NCBI GenBank assembly: GCA_963663275.1
Contig: OY760183.1
Coordinates: 1,600,001-1,664,000, forward strand
Length of the DNA stretch: 64,000 bases
Origin: Chloroflexota bacterium
Lineage (GTDB): Bacteria; Chloroflexota; UBA11872; VXOZ01
Direction: 5' to 3'
Shown here: positions 2,681 to 64,000 of the stretch, piece after piece
How the letters are laid out: every line of letters starts with the position of its first letter
How positions within the stretch are numbered: the stretch's first letter is position 1
Translations under genes and position numbers: made by a program
Notes under the pieces: generated by a model
Databases searched by the model: none
What the model was told of the DNA's origin: nothing
What the model saw: only the letters and a program-made list of their open reading frames with translations

Positions 2681-5466
2681 CCTTGCTCCTCACCAAACTT
2701 GATGGCTTCGTGAATGCGCATGCGCGAGAGCATGGAGATGATCACCGGCACGGCGATGACGAGGATGATGGCCAGGATGAAGTAGATCTTGGCAATGTCG
2801 CCCCAGGCGGTGACGACGACGAATGAGGGAATGTTGGCGTGTTCGCCGGTCTTGATTTGGAGGAAGGGGATGAAGATCCGGCCGGCGGCCACGCCGAAGA
2901 TCGTGCCGATCGTCACGCCCATCACGATGAGGAAGCCCTGCTCGAAGATGTAGAGGCTGATCAACTGCCGGATGGAGAGGCCCATGGCGCGCAGGATGCC
3001 AAAGTCCTGCATGCGGCGCTGGAAGGAGAGCAGCGAGTACGTCAGGAAGCCCAAGACGGTAAGGAGGATGGCAATCAGGAAGCCGACGGTCAACATGCCG
3101 AAGACGCCGGTGCGCTGGGGGTCGTCGCGCTGGGCTATCACTTTTTCACGGGTATCCTGGGTGCGCACCACGATGAATTCCAGTTCGCGCAGTTCCTCTT
3201 CGATCTTCTCGATGTCGGCGCCCGGGTCGGTCTTTACCCAGGCGTCGTACGGCCCCAGTCCGATATTGTCGAAGATGTAGTCCAGGTTCGCGATGGCAAA
3301 GTAGTCGGTATCGGGAAACTGGGTTGGGAAGTAGTCAACCCAGTCCACGATGACGAAGTCGATCTGCGTCTGGCGCAGGTTGATGCGCACGCGGTCGCCG
3401 ACCTTGAGCTTGTGGTCGATCATGAAGTTGGCGCTGGCCAGGATGGCGTCCGGCTGGGCGGCGAGTTCGTTCAGCAGCGTCACCAGCGAACGGTGGGCGA
3501 AGTCGGGCCGCCAGTACATCACGTTCACGGCGTCCCAGGGGTCGATGCCCACGATTTGTATCTCCGGCGTGGCGCGGTCGGGCAGGATGGCGTTGCCTTT
3601 GCTATCCCAGAAGCGGGCCACCGCCTTGATTTCCTCCACCTGCAAGTGGTCGTAGAACGGCGCGATATACCACTGCTCCAGTTCTTCGTCGTAATCGCCG
3701 GATTCATAGAACGCCATGTCCGCGCCGATGCGGTAGTAGACGGAGTCCGAATGGTTGCGCGTCAGCGTGGCGGCCACGGAGGCGCTGAAGGTGCCAATCG
3801 CCAGGGTCAGCACCAGCAGCAGGAGCAGGCTGTTGTACTGTCCCGCCGAACGGGAGATGTGGCGCAACCCCAGGAGGATGGAGACGCCCCAGAAGCGGTT
3901 GCCGATGCGGGTGACCAACTCCACGATGTAGGGAAAGAGCCGCACGAACAGGAGCGCCATGCCGAACATGAAGACCGAGGGCACAATGAGCAAGAGGGGA
4001 TTGGAGAAGACGTTGCCTTCCTCTCCCAGGACGATCACCTGCCGCTGGTCTTGCAGCAGGCGGTAGCCGTAGACAGCCAGCGCCAGCAGGAGGATATCGA
4101 CGAAGAACCGCTGCCACCAGGGCCGGCGCAACTTGCGGGAGGCTTCCTGCTTGAAGGTGACGATGCTGTGCCGGGCGGTGGCGGCCGCGGGCATGAGCGC
4201 CGCGCCAATCGAGAGCGCAATCGCGGCCAAGGCATAGTTGAAGGTGCTGGCGTTAATGGTGATGGGCAGCGGGTCGCGGCCGATGAACGTGAGGAACGTG
4301 TACGTGCGCGCGATGAGTTGGGCCAGATAGACGCCCAGCACCGGCCCCACCACCAGCGCCAAGATGCCGATCATGCCGCCTTCCAGCAGGTAGATGCCGA
4401 TGATTTGCCACGTGCTGGCGCCGCGGCTCTTGAGCACGGCAATCTCGTTGCGCTGGCGGTCCACCACCATCGAGGAAGCGATACCAATGTAGTAGAGCAC
4501 GATGCCGATGATGGGCGCGGAGAGGATGAAGAGCAGGATCTTGAGGAAGAAGAGGTCGCGCAGATAGCGCATCAATATGTCTTCGGGGGAGATGTCAACC
4601 TTCACCTTGCCAAGAATTGTGCCCAGGTTGGAGCGGATTTCGCTCACGCCGGTGACGATGGCCCGGGCATTGCTGGCGTTGATGGCGTCCACGTCGAACA
4701 CGGAGAACCACGTGTATTCATAGCCAATTTCCTCATAGTCGGACAGAATCACGTCGATGAACGTCTCGTCCGGGACCATCAATCCTTCTTTGAAGTACTG
4801 GGGATGGTAGAACCAGTAGATTTCGTTGGGGTCGTTGGGGAACCAGCGGCCCACGATCTTCACTTCGATGGGTTGCGGCTCGTTGTTGGGATTCATGAAG
4901 CGGACGTAGAGATGGTCGCCGACTTCGGCCCCGATGGCGTCCATCTTCTCGGTCATTATCACCGCTTCGATGTACGGATCGCCTGACTTAGCCGGGTTGG
5001 CGTAGCGTCCTTCCAGGATGCGGACGTGATCATCGAAGTCGGTGGCAAAGGCGATGAAGCCCCAATCGGCGAACTGGCGCGATGAAAAGTTGACCTCATC
5101 GCCGCTTGAAAGAATGGCCATGTGCTCGGTCTGGCCGTAGCGGGTGGAGAGGAGCAGCGGAATGCCCATCTCGGTAGGCGCCGTGACCCGCATGTAGTCG
5201 TCCGCCTGCTGGTATTGCAGCAGCGTGATGTTCACTTCGTTCTTGGGCTCGAACATGCGGATAAGCAGGCTGGCGCGGGGCTGCGCCTGGCGCTGCTCGG
5301 ATTCGCGCAGGGCGCGGTGCAGCAGCATCTCGCTCATGCCCTCGGAGTACAGCGGGACGCTGGAAACCAGGGTGACGGTGACGATCAGGCCCAGGATGGT
5401 GGAGGAGACGATGTTGATGTTGTTGAGCAGGCGCTTCGTAACGAGGACCAGGATCGAGTAGGTCAA
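2677..5466 (-). CDS. FtsX/MacB-family ABC permease (two permease repeats)
   Basis: RNEIAVLKSRGAS and DFGILRAMGLS FtsX motifs, many TM segments; TTG start with a GAGGGG RBS. Confidence 0.92.
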   Translation of the reverse strand: MTYSILVLVTKRLLNNINIVSSTILGLIVTVTLVSSVPLYSEGMSEMLLHRALRESEQRQAQPRASLLIRMFEPKNEVNITLLQYQQADDYMRVTAPTEMGIPLLLSTRYGQTEHMAILSSGDEVNFSSRQFADWGFIAFATDFDDHVRILEGRYANPAKSGDPYIEAVIMTEKMDAIGAEVGDHLYVRFMNPNNEPQPIEVKIVGRWFPNDPNEIYWFYHPQYFKEGLMVPDETFIDVILSDYEEIGYEYTWFSVFDVDAINASNARAIVTGVSEIRSNLGTILGKVKVDISPEDILMRYLRDLFFLKILLFILSAPIIGIVLYYIGIASSMVVDRQRNEIAVLKSRGASTWQIIGIYLLEGGMIGILALVVGPVLGVYLAQLIARTYTFLTFIGRDPLPITINASTFNYALAAIALSIGAALMPAAATARHSIVTFKQEASRKLRRPWWQRFFVDILLLALAVYGYRLLQDQRQVIVLGEEGNVFSNPLLLIVPSVFMFGMALLFVRLFPYIVELVTRIGNRFWGVSILLGLRHISRSAGQYNSLLLLLVLTLAIGTFSASVAATLTRNHSDSVYYRIGADMAFYESGDYDEELEQWYIAPFYDHLQVEEIKAVARFWDSKGNAILPDRATPEIQIVGIDPWDAVNVMYWRPDFAHRSLVTLLNELAAQPDAILASANFMIDHKLKVGDRVRINLRQTQIDFVIVDWVDYFPTQFPDTDYFAIANLDYIFDNIGLGPYDAWVKTDPGADIEKIEEELRELEFIVVRTQDTREKVIAQRDDPQRTGVFGMLTVGFLIAILLTVLGFLTYSLLSFQRRMQDFGILRAMGLSIRQLISLYIFEQGFLIVMGVTIGTIFGVAAGRIFIPFLQIKTGEHANIPSFVVVTAWGDIAKIYFILAIILVIAVPVIISMLSRMRIHEAIKFGEEQG

Positions 5467-59452: not shown

Positions 59453-60322
59453 GTGTATAAGAAGATCAGTGGCTTTGGCGATGAGATTACCGACGACTTC
59501 GGCGCGCAACTCGACGCCATGCAGGAAATCGGCATCGACTACATCGAAGTGCGCAATCTGGCCTTCGACGGGAAGCCCAGGGACGTGGTGGTCGATCTCT
59601 CGGAAGACGACTTGCGGGCGGCGAAACAGGCGCTGGACAGCCGCGGCATGAGGGTTTCCGCCATCGGCTCGCCGATCGGCAAGATCGGCATTACCGACGA
59701 CTTCGACGCGCATCTGGAACGCTTCCAGGGCGCGTTGCGCGCCGCCGACGTGTTTGAGACCTCCGCAATCCGCATGTTCTCCTTCTTCATGCCGGAGGGC
59801 GAAGACCCGGCGCAGTACCGGGATGAAGTGATGCGCCGCCTCCAGGCGCTGAGCGACGCGGCGCGGCGGTACCGGCCGGACATCATGCTGCTGCACGAGA
59901 ACGAGAGCGACATCTACGGCGACACGCCGGCGCGCTGCCAGGACATCTTCGAGTCGGTCGGCGCCGAGAACCTCCGCCTTACCCTCGACCCGGCAAACTT
60001 CGTGGCCTGCGGCGTGAAGCCCTATACCGAGGCCTACCCCGCGCTGAAACCCTGGCTGCAATATGTGCACGTGAAGGACAAGGAATCGCCGCAAGGCAAG
60101 GTGGTCATCGCCGGTGAAGGCGGCGCGGAATGGCGCGAACTCCTGCGCGCGTTGAAAGCCGACGGGTACGACGGCTTCTTCTCGCTGGAACCGCACTTGC
60201 AGGTGGCGGGCCGCTCCTTTGGCTACACCGGGCACGACCTCTTCGCCCAGGCGCACGCGGGCTTGATGACCCTGCTGACGGAAACCGGCTGGCAGTCCGC
60301 GCCCGCTGGCGGCGCCGCGTAG
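59453..60322 (+). CDS. Sugar phosphate isomerase/epimerase (TIM barrel)
   Basis: ISGFGDEI, IGSPIGK, IRMFSF, LHENE, DPANF, VHVKD, SLEPH; GAGGAG RBS before GTG. Confidence 0.88.
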   Translation: MYKKISGFGDEITDDFGAQLDAMQEIGIDYIEVRNLAFDGKPRDVVVDLSEDDLRAAKQALDSRGMRVSAIGSPIGKIGITDDFDAHLERFQGALRAADVFETSAIRMFSFFMPEGEDPAQYRDEVMRRLQALSDAARRYRPDIMLLHENESDIYGDTPARCQDIFESVGAENLRLTLDPANFVACGVKPYTEAYPALKPWLQYVHVKDKESPQGKVVIAGEGGAEWRELLRALKADGYDGFFSLEPHLQVAGRSFGYTGHDLFAQAHAGLMTLLTETGWQSAPAGGAA

Positions 60323-60347
60323 TCCGCTGCCGCACACGTGCGGTGTA

Positions 60348-60483
60348 CGACAAAGGCGTAGGTTCACGACAGAGGTGTAGGGGCACGACAAAGGAGTGGG
60401 TGCCCGATAAAGGTGTAGAGGCACGACAGAGTTGTAGGTACGCGACAAAGGTGTAGGGGCACGACATGTCGTGCCCCTACACC
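60348..60483. repeat. 6 x 19 bp tandem array ending in a perfect 34-bp family-D palindrome
   Basis: CGA units at 60348, 60367, 60386, 60405, 60424, 60443 and 60462; palindrome at 60450-60483. Confidence 0.92.
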
Positions 60484-60579
60484 GGGCGGCAAACCCTTTT
60501 AGGCATCGTTTTCGTAACTGTCCACTCTCCTGCGGCCGCATTGCGCGGCGCGGGTCTCTGCACGGGCGCGCGTTGGGGG

Positions 60580-62325
60580 CTAGGCGATTTCCGTGATGGA
60601 GACGCTATCGAACCAGGCCGTGCCTGTCGTGCCCGGCAGGGCGGAGAGCGCCACCCGGCAGCAGTAGACATAATCCGGCAAGACGGGTGTGGCGACTGCA
60701 AGGCGCGTCCAGTCCTGGCCGGCTGCGCCGCGTTCGCTGCCGCCAACCGGTTCTGAGCGCGCGCGGCCAAGGAAGCCCATGTCGCCGTTCCATTCCAGCG
60801 AGACCGTCATCCCTCCGCCGCGCAGGTCTTTCGTGCGCACCCAGGCTTCGAGCGCGTAGCGTTTGCCGGCGGTGGCCGCGAGCAGTTTGCCGTCGTCATT
60901 CAGCACGCGGCGGATTGCGGGCACGATTGGCTCCGCGCCGTCGCTGTGCCAGCGGATGCTTTCCTGGCTCGTGCGCGCCACCGCCCCGTCGCGGGCGTAC
61001 TGCGGGCGCGGCAGCACCCAGCGCGCCGCGCCTTCTTCCATGCCTGCCACCACCGTGCCATGCGGCGGCAGGTCGGGATACGGCAGTTGCGGGCTGGCGG
61101 CGGACAATTCCGGCAGGGCCGCCGCCGGTTTGCGCAACGTCAGCGTGTCGAAGCAATTGCCGTCGGTGTCGATGGCGCGCACCCGGCATTCGTCCGGCGC
61201 AACCGACGTGAGTAGCAGGTGGTTGACGGGCTTTGCCAACGCCGAAACGGGATGCAGGTGGTCCCAGAGTTCGCTGGGCGCCAGGCTCATGTCGTAGCCG
61301 CCGCCGCCGGAGACGAAGTAGACCACGCCGATTTGGCTGTCGTACTCTCCGCCCCGCAGCGGATGGAAGCGCTCGTAGATGGTGGCGTGGGCGGTGTACA
61401 CGATGTCCACGCCGTAGCGTTCGAACAAGGGGCAGAGCGCGCGGGTGGCCGGTATCTCGCAATTGTTCGAACAGTACGGCGGATGATGGAAGACGACGAA
61501 TTTCCAGCGGGCGTTCTGAAAAGTCTTGAGGTCGTGTTCCAGCCAGTGCCATTGCTCCGAGCCGGGCCGGTAGTCCAAGTTGCTGTTGAGCACGGTGAAG
61601 TGCGCCGCGCCGTAGTTGAAGGAATACCAGTAGTGGGGTTCCGGGTAGTTGAAGTAGCGGAAGTAGCCCTCGTTGGGGGAGTCGTGATTGCCCATGGCGG
61701 CGAACCACGGCGTGTAAGGCAGAAGATTCGACGTGCACGCGAAGAAATCGCTGAAGCGCGCAATCTCGTCCTGGGCGTGGTCGCCGGCCCCGACGCAGAT
61801 GTCCGCCCGGTAGGCGCGGGCAAGGCCGGCGTTGCGGCGGTGGACGTGGTTGACACGCAGGCTGTCGCCGTAGGTGGCGAACGAGAAGGGCGAGTTTGCG
61901 CGAACGGCGGTGCGAAAGCTGGCGGGGGCTGAGGTGACTGTTTCTTTTCCCAACGGTGAATGGGCATGATTTTGGTTGGCAGGAGAGAAGACCCCCTCAC
62001 CCCGGCCCTCTCCCCAGGGAGAGGGAGAGAAAGAGGAAGGGGGAGAGGGGGAAGTCTGCGGGATTGCGGAGCAAGAGGAAACCCGGTAGAAGTAGTCTTG
62101 TTCGGCCTCGAGGCCGGTGATGCGGACGGCGTGGACTGTGCGCGGTTCGGGGTCTTCGCTGCGGCAGGGATAGGTCGGTTCCGGCCGGCCAGCGTAGGCG
62201 CTCCAGCCCAGGCGGGCGCTGCGTTCGTACTCCACGACAGAGGTGGCGGGTTCGTCGGTCTGCCACATGATGGTGATCGCGTCGTGGGCCACGTTTTGCA
62301 GATACGGGCCGGCGGTGATTTTCAT
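60580..62325 (-). CDS. Purple-acid-phosphatase-like metallophosphoesterase (FN3 + calcineurin-like + C-terminal CBM-like domain)
   Basis: GPYLQ, ITIMWQT, YFYRV, YGDS, GD, GNHD, FHHPPY; C-terminal WVRT...GTAWFDSV. Confidence 0.85.
   Translation of the reverse strand: MKITAGPYLQNVAHDAITIMWQTDEPATSVVEYERSARLGWSAYAGRPEPTYPCRSEDPEPRTVHAVRITGLEAEQDYFYRVSSCSAIPQTSPSPPSSFSPSPWGEGRGEGVFSPANQNHAHSPLGKETVTSAPASFRTAVRANSPFSFATYGDSLRVNHVHRRNAGLARAYRADICVGAGDHAQDEIARFSDFFACTSNLLPYTPWFAAMGNHDSPNEGYFRYFNYPEPHYWYSFNYGAAHFTVLNSNLDYRPGSEQWHWLEHDLKTFQNARWKFVVFHHPPYCSNNCEIPATRALCPLFERYGVDIVYTAHATIYERFHPLRGGEYDSQIGVVYFVSGGGGYDMSLAPSELWDHLHPVSALAKPVNHLLLTSVAPDECRVRAIDTDGNCFDTLTLRKPAAALPELSAASPQLPYPDLPPHGTVVAGMEEGAARWVLPRPQYARDGAVARTSQESIRWHSDGAEPIVPAIRRVLNDDGKLLAATAGKRYALEAWVRTKDLRGGGMTVSLEWNGDMGFLGRARSEPVGGSERGAAGQDWTRLAVATPVLPDYVYCCRVALSALPGTTGTAWFDSVSITEIA
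61994..62026. repeat. Family-A palindrome inside the metallophosphoesterase CDS
   Basis: ccctcaccccggccctctccccagggagaggga, translated as SPSPWGEGRGEG. Confidence 0.88.
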
Positions 62326-63469: not shown

Positions 63470-64000
63470 GTGATTATCTACACGGATCACGATGAGGAAC
63501 GCCTCTACCCGGAGGAAGAGAAGATCGCCGACGAGCGGGCGGAGTTCGAACGCGACCGCGCCCGCATCATCCACAGCGCCGCTTTCCGGCGGTTGCAGGG
63601 CAAGACGCAGGTCTTCGGCGTGCGCTACGGCGACTTCTTTCGCACGCGGCTCACGCATTCGCTGGAGGTGGCGCAGATCGGCAAGGCGCTGGCGTTGCGG
63701 TTAGGGGCGGATCCGACCTTGGTCGAGGCGATTTGCCTGGCGCACGACATCGGCCATCCGCCGTTCGGCCACCACGGGGAACAGGCACTGCGGTCGCGCA
63801 TGGCGGCGCTCGGCAATTTCGAGGCGAACGCCCAGAATCTGCGGGTGCTGACGCAGCTTGAGGTGAAGTCGGACCGGTACGCCGGGCTCAATCTGACGCG
63901 GGGGGCGCTGGACGGACTGCTGAAGTATAAGGCGCTGTATGAAATTCCAAGTGGCGCGGGCGCGCTTGGCCAAGCGAACCCTCACCCTAACCCTCTCCCT
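63470..64000 (+). CDS. dgt: dGTP triphosphohydrolase (HD domain), 3'-truncated; absent from the ORF track
   Basis: From GTG 63470: [54 protein letters not shown]; frame open to the window end. Confidence 0.92.
63979..64000. repeat. Start of a family-A palindrome inside the dgt reading frame
   Basis: ccctcaccctaaccctctccct, translated as PHPNPLP. Confidence 0.8.

What the first reader, a model, noticed from the sequence alone, without database searches (positions are those of the whole stretch)
63925..64000. Second in-frame family-A insertion, in dgt, read on the opposite strand
Seen: after the conserved LLKY motif the frame continues ...[16 protein letters not shown] to the window edge; the last 22 nt are the start of a family-A element, read in a frame that avoids its internal TAA. 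Established: the segment after LKY is variable in dGTPases. Inference: two coding insertions within 2 kb, in both orientations, suggest many more genome-wide.
Basis: partly seen in the sequence, partly recalled or inferred. Interest (0 to 1): 0.7.

Follow-up and report, generated by a model that had tools for sequence, protein, structure and literature searches.

The report
Hairpin repeats inserted inside dGTPase gene
A cluster of four small selfish DNA hairpin repeats sits in frame inside the dGTPase gene of an uncultured Chloroflexota bacterium, adding a floppy 87-residue loop without breaking the enzyme; this is a clear new example of a phenomenon already known from Rickettsia and other bacteria.

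Summary
The dgt frame (window 63470 onward) stays open past the window edge for 506 codons and resumes the dGTPase motifs (…[18 protein letters not shown]…).

**The insertion**
- Residues 158-251 (window 63941 to about 64222) replace a 7-residue turn, a net gain of 87 aa (261 nt).
- All 14 same-genus orthologues lack it, as do all 22 relatives in public genomes.
- It holds two canonical copies of a ~40-nt REP-like hairpin ("family A", 394 copies in this genome) and two degenerate ones, arranged as a 135-nt internal duplication.

**Evidence that it is real and tolerated**
- Contigs from other studies span both junctions.
- A 488-aa allele has one unit fewer.
- Listed strain differences are 31 synonymous to 6 non-synonymous.
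- All family-invariant residues are kept.
- AlphaFold predicts a disordered loop at the tip of a β-hairpin.

**Genome-wide**
- 372 of 394 copies lie outside my gene calls.
- 18 copies lie in frame in 12 conserved genes, including UvrA, holB, MoeA and TilS.
- So "many more" means about a dozen genes.

Intragenic REPs and Rickettsia palindromic elements are published precedents. This scan had also noted such insertions in other genomes. I rate it a new member of a known kind, of moderate interest.

The parts
63470..64000 (+). 5' part of dgt (dGTPase / dNTP triphosphohydrolase). The whole gene is G000:C1:1663470-1664990 = L001:3470-4990, 506 aa; the window holds codons 1-177.
   Evidence: ORF. 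Pfam HD (residues 60-109) and HD_assoc (400-492). NCBIfam TIGR01353 scores 321.3 bits against a cut-off of 152.35. PDB dGTPases align with residues 20-159 and 273-495.
63941..64000 (+). Start of the 282-nt inserted segment, codons 158-251. It runs on to window-equivalent 64222 (L001:3941-4222). It replaces the 21-nt turn GSRPGLR of the orthologues, a net gain of 261 nt / 87 aa.
   Evidence: Protein and DNA alignments with 14 same-genus orthologues, all 419 aa from the aligned start. Alignment A1 with 20 relatives.
63941..63977 (+). Leader of the insert ([12 protein letters not shown]), a small hairpin of its own (CCAAG...CTTGG). It has no other copy in the genome.
   Evidence: blastn-short of the insert against the genome gives 0 hits for insert positions 1-30. 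Fold.
63978..64000 (+). Unit 1, a canonical family-A element (full extent 63978-64015), read as [12 protein letters not shown].
   Evidence: nhmmer E 2.3e-9. It is 100% identical over 35-38 nt to 10 listed copies elsewhere in the genome. Units 2-4 lie beyond the window: U2 at 64033-64070 (nhmmer E 1.2e-4), and the degenerate cores of U3 at about 64128-64146 and U4 at about 64183-64200.
61992..62029 (+). The 'first' family-A insertion, read on the opposite strand as SPSPWGEGRGEG inside a purple-acid-phosphatase-like metallophosphoesterase.
   Evidence: nhmmer E 2.6e-9. Host gene and Pfam domains. The same element is at the same site in G001, G008 and G009, and the site is empty in 11 other congeners.
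60580..62325 (-). Host gene of the first insertion (Metallophos + Pur_ac_phosph_N, 581 aa as called).

Best explanation
The dgt gene of this uncultured Chloroflexota genome carries a cluster of REP-like hairpin repeats ('family A'). The element consensus is ttccCCCTCACCC-YRR-CCCTCTCCC-loop-GGGAGAGGGgAc.

Shown:
- The cluster adds a net 87 residues (94 replacing 7) at the tip of a β-hairpin, in a segment whose length varies among dGTPases.
- The gene stays in frame and keeps every family-invariant residue.
- It has evolved under purifying selection since the insertion.
- The number of units differs between strains.

Inferred:
- One or two elements landed in, or were copied into, the loop-coding DNA after this lineage split from the 14 sampled congeners.
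- The cluster then grew by an in-frame 135-nt duplication.
- It shrinks or grows by recombination between hairpin cores that lie 54 nt apart.
- Only events that were a multiple of three long, free of stops, and coding a flexible Pro/Gly/Glu-rich peptide in a permissive surface loop survived selection.
- The insert is therefore a tolerated passenger (selfish DNA turned into a disordered loop), not a new functional domain. The enzyme most likely still works.

The enzyme that moves family A is unknown.
For: **Insertion.** 14 of 14 same-genus orthologues are 419 aa from the aligned start, against 506 aa here. The extra 87 aa all lie between LLKYKALY and KACYAEDAPLL. By match length, 22 of 22 public relatives lack it. 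20 of them were aligned in A1.

**Repeat origin.**
- Unit 1 scores E 2.3e-9 and unit 2 E 1.2e-4 against a profile built from 324 genomic copies.
- Unit 1 is 100% identical over 35-38 nt to 10 listed copies elsewhere.
- The family has 394 non-overlapping copies at E<=0.01. 372 of them lie outside my gene calls, where about 303 would be expected inside genes at 76.8% coding.

**Growth in place.** A 102-nt direct repeat (L001 3981-4082 and 4116-4217) is 74% identical with a period of 135 nt. Hairpin cores 1 and 2 lie 54 nt apart. A 488-aa allele, P0001, lacks exactly those 18 residues.

**Not an artefact.**
- In run X1, contigs match at 0 differences from 3400 to 4002 and from 4135 to 5000. X1 may be the source sample.
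- In run X2, from another study, contigs cover 3400-3998 (24 differences, no gaps) and 4020-4484 (15 differences, no gaps).
- Runs X3 and X4, from a third study, hold pieces across the right and left junction respectively.

**Still under selection.**
- Of the 37 listed X2 differences inside dgt, 31 are synonymous and 6 are not. 29 of them are at third codon positions. 59 further differences were not shown by the tool.
- All invariant columns of A1 are kept, including H63, H92-D93 and D285.
- No second full-length dgt was found in G000.

**Passenger loop.**
- AlphaFold2 gives pLDDT below 50 and no secondary structure for residues 161-247, flanked by strands 156-158 and 250-252. The rest of the protein models well, with 10-residue block means mostly 82-97 from residue 271 to 490.
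- The closest solved folds are dGTPases (7lwz, TM 0.79 on target length).
- Against P0001 the insert differs at 6 of 76 aligned residues. The rest differs at 9 of 412, one of which is only the GTG start (Fisher p = 0.018).
- The insert is rich in Gly and Pro: G 19, P 11, L 10 and E 8 of 94.
Against: - No expression or protein data exist, so translation through four hairpins is not shown. The insert's RNA folds at -134.5 kcal/mol, z = -3.8.
- Enzyme activity and oligomer formation with the loop are untested.
- The order of events is ambiguous. Unit 1 matches the family consensus perfectly while its presumed duplicate, unit 3, has diverged. That fits a recent second insertion or gene conversion better than one old duplication.
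- No target-site duplication or transposase could be identified. The only Y1 transposase hit has no family-A copy within about 3 kb.
- The synonymous/non-synonymous count rests on 37 of the differences the tool chose to list.
Confidence: 0.85

Rival explanations
1. The loop has been put to use. The REP-derived, disordered Pro/Gly/Glu-rich segment gives the dGTPase a new property, such as a partner-binding tether, altered regulation or oligomerisation, or evasion of a phage inhibitor. On this reading it is kept for that reason.
For: - The insert is kept in frame in strains about 3-4% diverged, from at least two further studies.
- In 9 of 12 host genes the hairpin core is read as P-[LS]-P-x(1-3)-G-E-G, although only 319 of 1,417 stop-free frames (22.5%) read that way. 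This shows selection on the peptide encoded.
- Six of 12 host genes act on DNA. Di Nocera et al. 2013 (PMC3733652, passages seen) noted the same skew and proposed altered repair activity.
Against: - The insert is absent from all 14 congeners and all 22 wider relatives.
- It is predicted disordered.
- It evolves about four times faster than the rest of the protein.
- The unit number differs between close strains.
- The same sequence is overwhelmingly intergenic.
- The frame bias is equally explained by selection for harmless, flexible peptides.
Confidence: 0.08
2. The gene is a young pseudogene. The insertion inactivated dgt and the open frame is a leftover that has not yet decayed.
For: A 94-residue disordered segment lies inside a compact enzyme. 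The NCBIfam equivalog PRK03007 score (376.8 bits) falls just under its cut-off of 385. No expression data exist.
Against: - The strain differences linked to the insert run 31 synonymous to 6 non-synonymous.
- No indels appear in any laid contig (table 4).
- All invariant residues are kept.
- The allele with one unit fewer is also in frame.
- The two halves of the internal duplication are only 74% identical, so the insert is old. The frame is nevertheless intact.
Confidence: 0.05
3. It is an assembly artefact, or a home-grown low-complexity expansion unrelated to the dispersed repeat.
For: Repeats attract misassembly, and short-read contigs break inside unit 1. Units 3 and 4 and the leader have no copies elsewhere in the genome.
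Against: - Contigs from other studies span both junctions.
- An independent 1,733-nt ENA contig encodes the 488-aa allele.
- Units 1 and 2 match the family profile, and unit 1 is identical to dispersed copies.
Confidence: 0.02

Closest known systems
Intragenic REPs (GTAG- and CGTC-tagged repetitive extragenic palindromes; Di Nocera, De Gregorio & Rocco 2013, PMC3733652; passages read)
   Same: Both are short, GC-rich hairpin repeats that are mostly intergenic, with a minority lying in frame in known genes, often as dimers or clusters. That paper reports clusters coding 43-82 aa and a skew towards DNA synthesis and repair genes, uvrA included. Here the hosts include UvrA, holB, a RecN/SMC-like gene, dgt and two restriction-modification genes.
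   Different: Family A carries neither tag: each tetranucleotide is adjacent in at most 6 of 324 copies. It shows no RAYT association. At 94 aa the dgt cluster is longer than the range quoted there. The paper's host-gene list, Additional file 3 (.xls), could not be read, so whether a dgt host is already listed is unknown.
Rickettsia palindromic elements (RPE; Ogata et al. 2000 and 2002, known here only through passages of the review PMC10969869, and of PMC3733652)
   Same: Selfish palindromic DNA is inserted in frame into unrelated housekeeping genes, coding extra peptide segments judged compatible with fold and function.
   Different: By the review, RPEs are about 150 bp, belong to Rickettsia, and many copies lie in ORFs. 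Family A is about 40 nt, belongs to Chloroflexota, and only 4.6% of its copies are in genes.
REPINs / BIME-type REP clusters (names recalled; the earlier scan note e1-2640378 describes a 1-kb REP/BIME block in this same genome)
   Same: Family A forms inverted pairs at a fixed distance: 53 '-+' pairs, most with a 49-51 nt gap. It also forms tandem clusters that grow locally.
   Different: The dgt cluster is a tandem, same-orientation array inside a gene, not an intergenic inverted dimer.

Membership tests
dGTPase / dNTP triphosphohydrolase (TIGR01353; Pfam HD + HD_assoc) | HD domain plus the C-terminal HD-associated domain, scoring above the family cut-off | tested here: met
   PF01966 E 6.7e-13, PF13286 E 5.9e-18. 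TIGR01353 scores 321.3 bits against a cut-off of 152.35.
dGTPase / dNTP triphosphohydrolase (TIGR01353; Pfam HD + HD_assoc) | Conserved metal-binding and catalytic residues (H...HD...D) retained | tested here: met
   H63, H92, D93 and D285 are invariant across the 21 sequences of A1, the query included. Which residues bind metal is recalled, not tested.
dGTPase / dNTP triphosphohydrolase (TIGR01353; Pfam HD + HD_assoc) | dGTPase fold | tested here: met
   Foldseek top hits are 7lwz (V. cholerae dGTPase, TM 0.79 on target length), 9p8w and 2dqb.
dGTPase / dNTP triphosphohydrolase (TIGR01353; Pfam HD + HD_assoc) | Equivalog-level assignment (PRK03007, or the anti-phage dGTPase NF041026) | tested here: not met
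   376.8 bits against a cut-off of 385, and 342.2 against 400. The match is split in two by the insert, so substrate specificity is left open.
dGTPase / dNTP triphosphohydrolase (TIGR01353; Pfam HD + HD_assoc) | dNTP triphosphohydrolase activity | not testable with these tools
   Needs an enzyme assay.
REP (repetitive extragenic palindrome), broad sense | Short, palindromic, many copies with a common consensus, mostly extragenic (criteria as listed in PMC12306157) | tested here: met
   The element is about 40 nt with a 9-bp stem. There are 394 copies at E<=0.01, of which 372 lie outside gene calls.
GTAG/CGTC-tagged REP superfamilies (PMC3733652) | A GTAG or CGTC tetranucleotide at one end of the palindrome | tested here: not met
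   Adjacent GTAG 1, CTAC 5, CGTC 6 and GACG 4 of 324 copies.
RAYT-mobilised REP / REPIN | A RAYT (Y1 transposase) gene flanked by the family's own repeats | tested here: not met
   There is one PF01797 hit (383050-383358, 43.7 bits). No family-A hit at E<=10 lies within 381000-385500.
RAYT-mobilised REP / REPIN | Inverted dimers at a fixed spacing | tested here: met
   53 '-+' pairs lie within 300 nt. Most of the 40 shortest gaps shown are 49-51 nt. The dgt units are tandem '++', not such a dimer.
Rickettsia palindromic elements | Elements of about 100-150 bp in Rickettsia genomes | tested here: not met
   About 40 nt; the host is an uncultured Chloroflexota.
Rickettsia palindromic elements | In-frame insertion in conserved genes at sites compatible with the fold | tested here: met
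   dgt, and 11 further genes with Pfam domains on both sides of, or around, the element.
MITE | Terminal inverted repeats and target-site duplications | tested here: inconclusive
   The element is a single hairpin with a one-sided extension. The ancestral 21 nt at the dgt site are too diverged to show a duplication.

The most novel reading that the evidence does not exclude
Hairpin repeats that turn up again and again inside DNA-handling genes are not accidents of tolerance. In this genome the hosts are UvrA, dgt, holB, a RecN-like gene and two restriction-modification enzymes. Across the genus, the UvrA linker holds in-frame arrays of different repeat families, up to roughly 330 residues long. 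On the novel reading, these arrays form a selected, fast-changing layer. They would tune repair, dNTP supply or phage defence, at the protein level through variable disordered loops or at the DNA/RNA level through hairpins. The same 21-nt signature kept across a quarter of sampled Chloroflexota genomes would then mark a conserved recognition site.
Probability: 0.08. Interest if true: 0.7.

Novelty: new member of a known kind. Interest (0 to 1): 0.33.

Why it matters
This is a clean natural experiment in how proteins gain length. Selfish DNA is turned into a long disordered loop in a single-copy housekeeping enzyme. The empty site is known from 14 congeners, a unit-number polymorphism exists between strains, and there is direct evidence of purifying selection after the event.

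For annotators, such genes are intact even though family models score them just under their cut-offs. For repeat biology, it extends intragenic REPs to an uncultured Chloroflexota lineage. It also adds a frame preference (P-x-P...G-E-G) and a genus-wide UvrA landing site. Both could be used to test whether the published skew towards DNA-repair genes is selection or chance.

Tried and rejected
- **RNA evidence.** No RNA holder is listed for the stretch, so nothing can be said about expression.
- **Rfam on L001 3400-5100.** Only sub-threshold matches came back, the best at E 0.054 and 23.7 bits against a gathering score of 90. There is therefore no sign of an intron or a known RNA. No intein or other extra domain appears in Pfam.
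- **A possible shorter allele in run X4.** The joint 4013 to 4222 has a side of only 25 nt, below the tool's own reliability advice, so it was not used.
- **First repeat alignment.** The seed alignment with 40-nt flanks was too gappy to define element ends. It was redone with 8-nt flanks.
- **Strict test for missed in-gene copies.** Requiring 60 well-scoring codons on each side was too strict, because neighbouring repeat units score badly. The relaxed version found 13 element-frame combinations, all already called, and no new gene.
- **Literature.** A search for a dGTPase with a palindromic in-frame insert gave nothing relevant among the 10 papers listed. A search for REPs in Chloroflexi returned only general surveys.
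- **Steps not attempted.**
  - Target-site duplication: the empty sites are too diverged.
  - Homo-oligomer prediction: two chains exceed the size limit.

Full report
**1. The observation**

The window's last ORF starts at 63470 (GTG) and runs off the edge. It reads ...[31 protein letters not shown]. The window is bases 1600001-1664000 of a single 3,531,182-bp contig with no N and 64.3% G+C, so the edge is only a window boundary.

Read on in the genome, the frame stays open for 506 codons.

The protein is a dGTPase-family enzyme:
- Pfam finds HD and HD_assoc.
- NCBIfam TIGR01353 scores 321.3 bits against a cut-off of 152.35.
- Solved dGTPases align with residues 20-159 and 273-495 and skip what lies between.

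**2. It is an insertion**

A search of 30 relatives found dgt in 14 of 16 same-genus genomes. It was not found with this query in G012 (97% complete) or G014 (69% complete). In all 14, residues 1-158 and about 250-506 of the query match two stretches only 9-18 nt apart.

Extracted and aligned, all 14 orthologues are 419 aa from the common start, against 506 aa here. They read LLKYKAIH-GSRPGLR-KSCYAEDAPLL. G000 instead has 94 residues (158-251) in place of those 7.

A scan of one genome per species found 22 relatives, all uncultured Chloroflexota-type MAGs plus one bin labelled archaeal. Their match lengths are 1152-1281 nt. None has the about 1518 nt of G000. I aligned 20 of the 22 as A1, leaving out L046 (cut by a contig end) and L049, and the gap is clean.

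The segment after LLKYK also differs in length between dGTPase subfamilies. About 27 residues lie between the two conserved blocks in this genus and about 68 in 7lwz.

**3. What was inserted**

The genome holds a short hairpin repeat. Its consensus is ttccCCCTCACCC-YRR-CCCTCTCCC-loop-GGGAGAGGGgAc, derived from 324 copies found with a loose pattern. A profile built from them finds 394 non-overlapping copies at E<=0.01.

The units inside dgt:
- Unit 1 (window 63978-64015) scores E 2.3e-9. It is 100% identical over 35-38 nt to 10 listed copies elsewhere in the genome.
- Unit 2 (64033-64070) scores E 1.2e-4.
- Units 3 and 4 are hairpins with degenerate cores (CTCTCCCTCAGGGTGAGGG and TCTCTCTGAGAGAGAGGG). 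Like the 36-nt leader, they have no other copy in the genome.

A 102-nt direct repeat (L001 3981-4082 and 4116-4217) is 74% identical with a 135-nt period. Units 3+4 are therefore an old in-frame duplicate of units 1+2, or the reverse.

At the peptide level the four units read PLPQGEGIRGN, PLPQGEGTKGG, SLPQGEGIQGN and HLSEREGAVAGN. As RNA the insert folds at -134.5 kcal/mol, z = -3.8 against shuffles. No Rfam family matches.

**4. It is real, and it is polymorphic**

Logan contigs of four public runs were laid on L001:3400-5000.
- Run X1, which may be the source sample, has a 2,004-nt contig identical over 3400-4002 and a 944-nt contig identical over 4135-5000.
- Run X2, from another study, has a contig over 3400-3998 (24 differences, no gaps). 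It crosses the left junction at 3941.
- X2 also has a contig over 4020-4484 (15 differences, no gaps). It covers units 2-4 and the right junction at 4222.
- Runs X3 and X4, from a third study and labelled sponge metagenome, hold pieces across the right junction (4183-4567) and into the left side (3443-3969).

No indels were reported in any run. Short-read contigs break inside unit 1, where depth jumps to thousands, as expected for a dispersed repeat.

Separately, a protein-database search restricted to residues 130-280 found one insert-bearing relative, P0001 (488 aa, from a 1,733-nt ENA contig). The other 18 hits match only the flanks. P0001 is identical at 474 of 506 aligned positions. It lacks exactly 18 residues (QGEGIRGNAPSPHLDPLP), which is the 54 nt between the cores of units 1 and 2. 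Its junction has unit 1's left half and unit 2's right half. That is what recombination between the two identical cores would leave.

**5. The gene is still under selection**

- The 37 differences that the tool listed for X2 inside dgt are 31 synonymous and 6 non-synonymous, with 29 at third positions. 59 further differences were not shown. The contigs that carry them also carry the junctions, so this selection acted on the insert-bearing gene.
- All invariant columns of A1 are kept in G000.
- No second full-length dgt was found in the genome.
- Against P0001 the insert differs at 6 of 76 aligned residues. The rest differs at 9 of 412, one of which is merely the GTG start (Fisher p = 0.018).

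So the frame is kept, while the insert's own sequence is under weaker constraint than the rest of the protein.

**6. Where it sits**

AlphaFold2 on A1 (21 sequences) gave mean pLDDT 71.8 and pTM 0.72. Residues 161-247 are below 50 with no secondary structure. They lie between two short strands (156-158 and 250-252), which in the congeners would be joined by the 7-residue turn. From residue 271 to 490 the 10-residue block means are mostly 82-97. Foldseek places the model among dGTPases: 7lwz with TM 0.79 on target length, then 9p8w and 2dqb. The insert is Gly/Pro/Leu/Glu-rich, with 19, 11, 10 and 8 of 94 residues.

**7. The family genome-wide**

It called 2,636 genes, 76.8% of the genome.
- 372 of 394 copies lie outside genes, 4 overlap a gene end, and 18 lie inside 12 genes. 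About 303 would be expected inside genes by chance.
- A second test that ignores the gene calls looked for open frames spanning an element with positive coding score on both sides. It found no further host.

All 12 hosts are recognisable conserved genes:
- an NAD-dependent epimerase;
- UvrA, with four tandem copies at a 45-nt period;
- two Eco57I/MmeI-type restriction-modification enzymes;
- TilS;
- a RecN/SMC-like ATPase;
- the metallophosphoesterase in this window;
- dgt;
- MoeA, with two inverted copies;
- a cobalamin adenosyltransferase;
- a LytR-CpsA-Psr protein;
- DNA polymerase III delta'.

In three of them (TilS, the RecN-like gene, delta') the element sits at the very C-terminus.

The family is organised as 273 clusters: 181 singles, 66 pairs, 23 triplets and 3 quadruplets. 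There is a favoured inverted pair with a 49-51 nt spacer. It carries no GTAG or CGTC tag. The genome's one Y1-transposase hit has no family-A copy nearby. What moves the element is unknown.

**8. Frame preference**

Because the core is a palindrome, both orientations can be read as P-[LS]-P-x(1-3)-G-E-G. That is how it is read in 9 of the 12 host genes. Among all six-frame readings of the 394 copies, that class makes up 319 of 1,417 stop-free frames (22.5%). It is no more stop-free than the other frames: 73% against 72% in one orientation, and 48% against 48% in the other. By my own arithmetic, the binomial chance of 9 or more in 12 is about 2e-4. Stop avoidance alone does not explain which frames survive. 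The peptide matters.

**9. Relatives**

- The 21-nt signature CCCTCACCCYRRCCCTCTCCC occurs in all 17 genus genomes, from 1 to 332 times, with G000 highest. The reversed control is 0 everywhere.
- It occurs in 32 of 121 genomes sampled across the phylum, or 26 of 80 genera. One of the 32, G065, is unpublished and contributes a single match.
- The metallophosphoesterase insertion in this window (SPSPWGEGRGEG) is shared at the same site by G001, G008 and G009. The site is empty in 11 other congeners, and the locus is cut in G014. It is therefore older than the dgt event, or recurrent.
- The UvrA linker holds in-frame inserts of different length in all 17 genomes, none with a stop. In G010 and G004 the inserts are built from other repeat families, with peptides such as RHSRESG.. 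and MDSRFRGNDG.

**10. Comparison with what is known**

Di Nocera et al. 2013 (PMC3733652; passages read) describe REPs inside genes in several species. Many are dimers or clusters, clusters code 43-82 aa, and there is a skew towards DNA synthesis and repair genes, uvrA among them. Their host list, Additional file 3, could not be read here.

The review PMC10969869 (passages read) summarises Rickettsia palindromic elements inserted in frame in many genes (Ogata 2000, 2002; not read).

Earlier notes of this scan report a REP/BIME block in this same genome (e1-2640378) and intragenic REPs in two other genomes (e1-2231606 and e1-3565237). The scan has therefore found this kind of thing before on other DNA.

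My searches found no paper on this repeat family or on a REP-bearing dGTPase.

**11. Verdict**

What is here is a four-unit REP cluster turned into an 87-residue net gain of disordered loop in an intact, selected, single-copy dGTPase gene.

It is a new and unusually well-documented member of a known kind:
- the empty site is known;
- strain alleles exist;
- there is selection evidence from after the insertion;
- at 94 aa the cluster is longer than the published range quoted above.

It works like an RPE or an intragenic REP. It is not a member of the RPE, GTAG or CGTC families, because their defining features were tested and not met.

Noticed in passing
G000:C1:1163351-1163524 (UvrA, L023); L056 (G010), L057 (G004): The linker between the UvrA interaction and DNA-binding domains is a genus-wide landing site. 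It holds four tandem family-A copies at a 45-nt period in G000. In all 17 genus genomes it holds in-frame inserts of different length with no stops. In G010 the insert is several hundred residues long (roughly 330) and, as in G004, is built from other repeat families (peptides RHSRESG.., MDSRFRGNDG).
   Followed up: partly
window 61992-62029; L058-L060: The family-A copy in the metallophosphoesterase (SPSPWGEGRGEG) is shared at the same site by G001, G008 and G009. In those three it is preceded by a variable 9-residue tandem repeat (APSTPSLSG-like). Eleven other congeners have an empty site.
   Followed up: partly
genome-wide (12 host genes): In 9 of 12 host genes the hairpin core is read as P-[LS]-P-x(1-3)-G-E-G in either orientation, although only 22.5% of stop-free frames read that way. 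Stop avoidance alone does not explain the surviving frames.
   Followed up: partly
genome-wide: Six of the 12 host genes act on DNA: UvrA, a RecN/SMC-like gene, DNA polymerase III delta', dgt and two restriction-modification enzymes. This echoes the skew reported in PMC3733652. No baseline test was done.
   Followed up: no
17 genus genomes and 121 phylum genomes: The exact 21-nt family-A signature is present in all 17 genus genomes (1 to 332 copies, G000 highest). It is also present in 32 of 121 sampled Chloroflexota genomes (26 of 80 genera). That is unusually wide for a REP-type family. One of the 32 is the unpublished G065.
   Followed up: partly
genome-wide: Family A forms a favoured inverted pair ('-+') with a 49-51 nt spacer, a REPIN-like composite of about 130 nt. 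The spacer sequence was not examined.
   Followed up: no
window ~60100-60500 and L001:5040-5100 (just downstream of dgt): A second, different hairpin repeat family appears as an array upstream of the metallophosphoesterase and as one copy after the dgt stop. In spurious ORFs it translates as ..SCPYT.VV.LHLCR.. / ..GARHVVPLHL...
   Followed up: no
L001:6787-7797 (-), about 1.8 kb downstream of dgt: A 336-aa ORF looks like an insertion-sequence transposase, judged by eye. It was not scanned against any library.
   Followed up: no
G000:C1:383050-383358: The genome's only Y1 transposase (PF01797) hit scores 43.7 bits and lies in a gap between my gene calls. No family-A copy lies within about 3 kb, so it is not an obvious mobiliser of family A.
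   Followed up: partly
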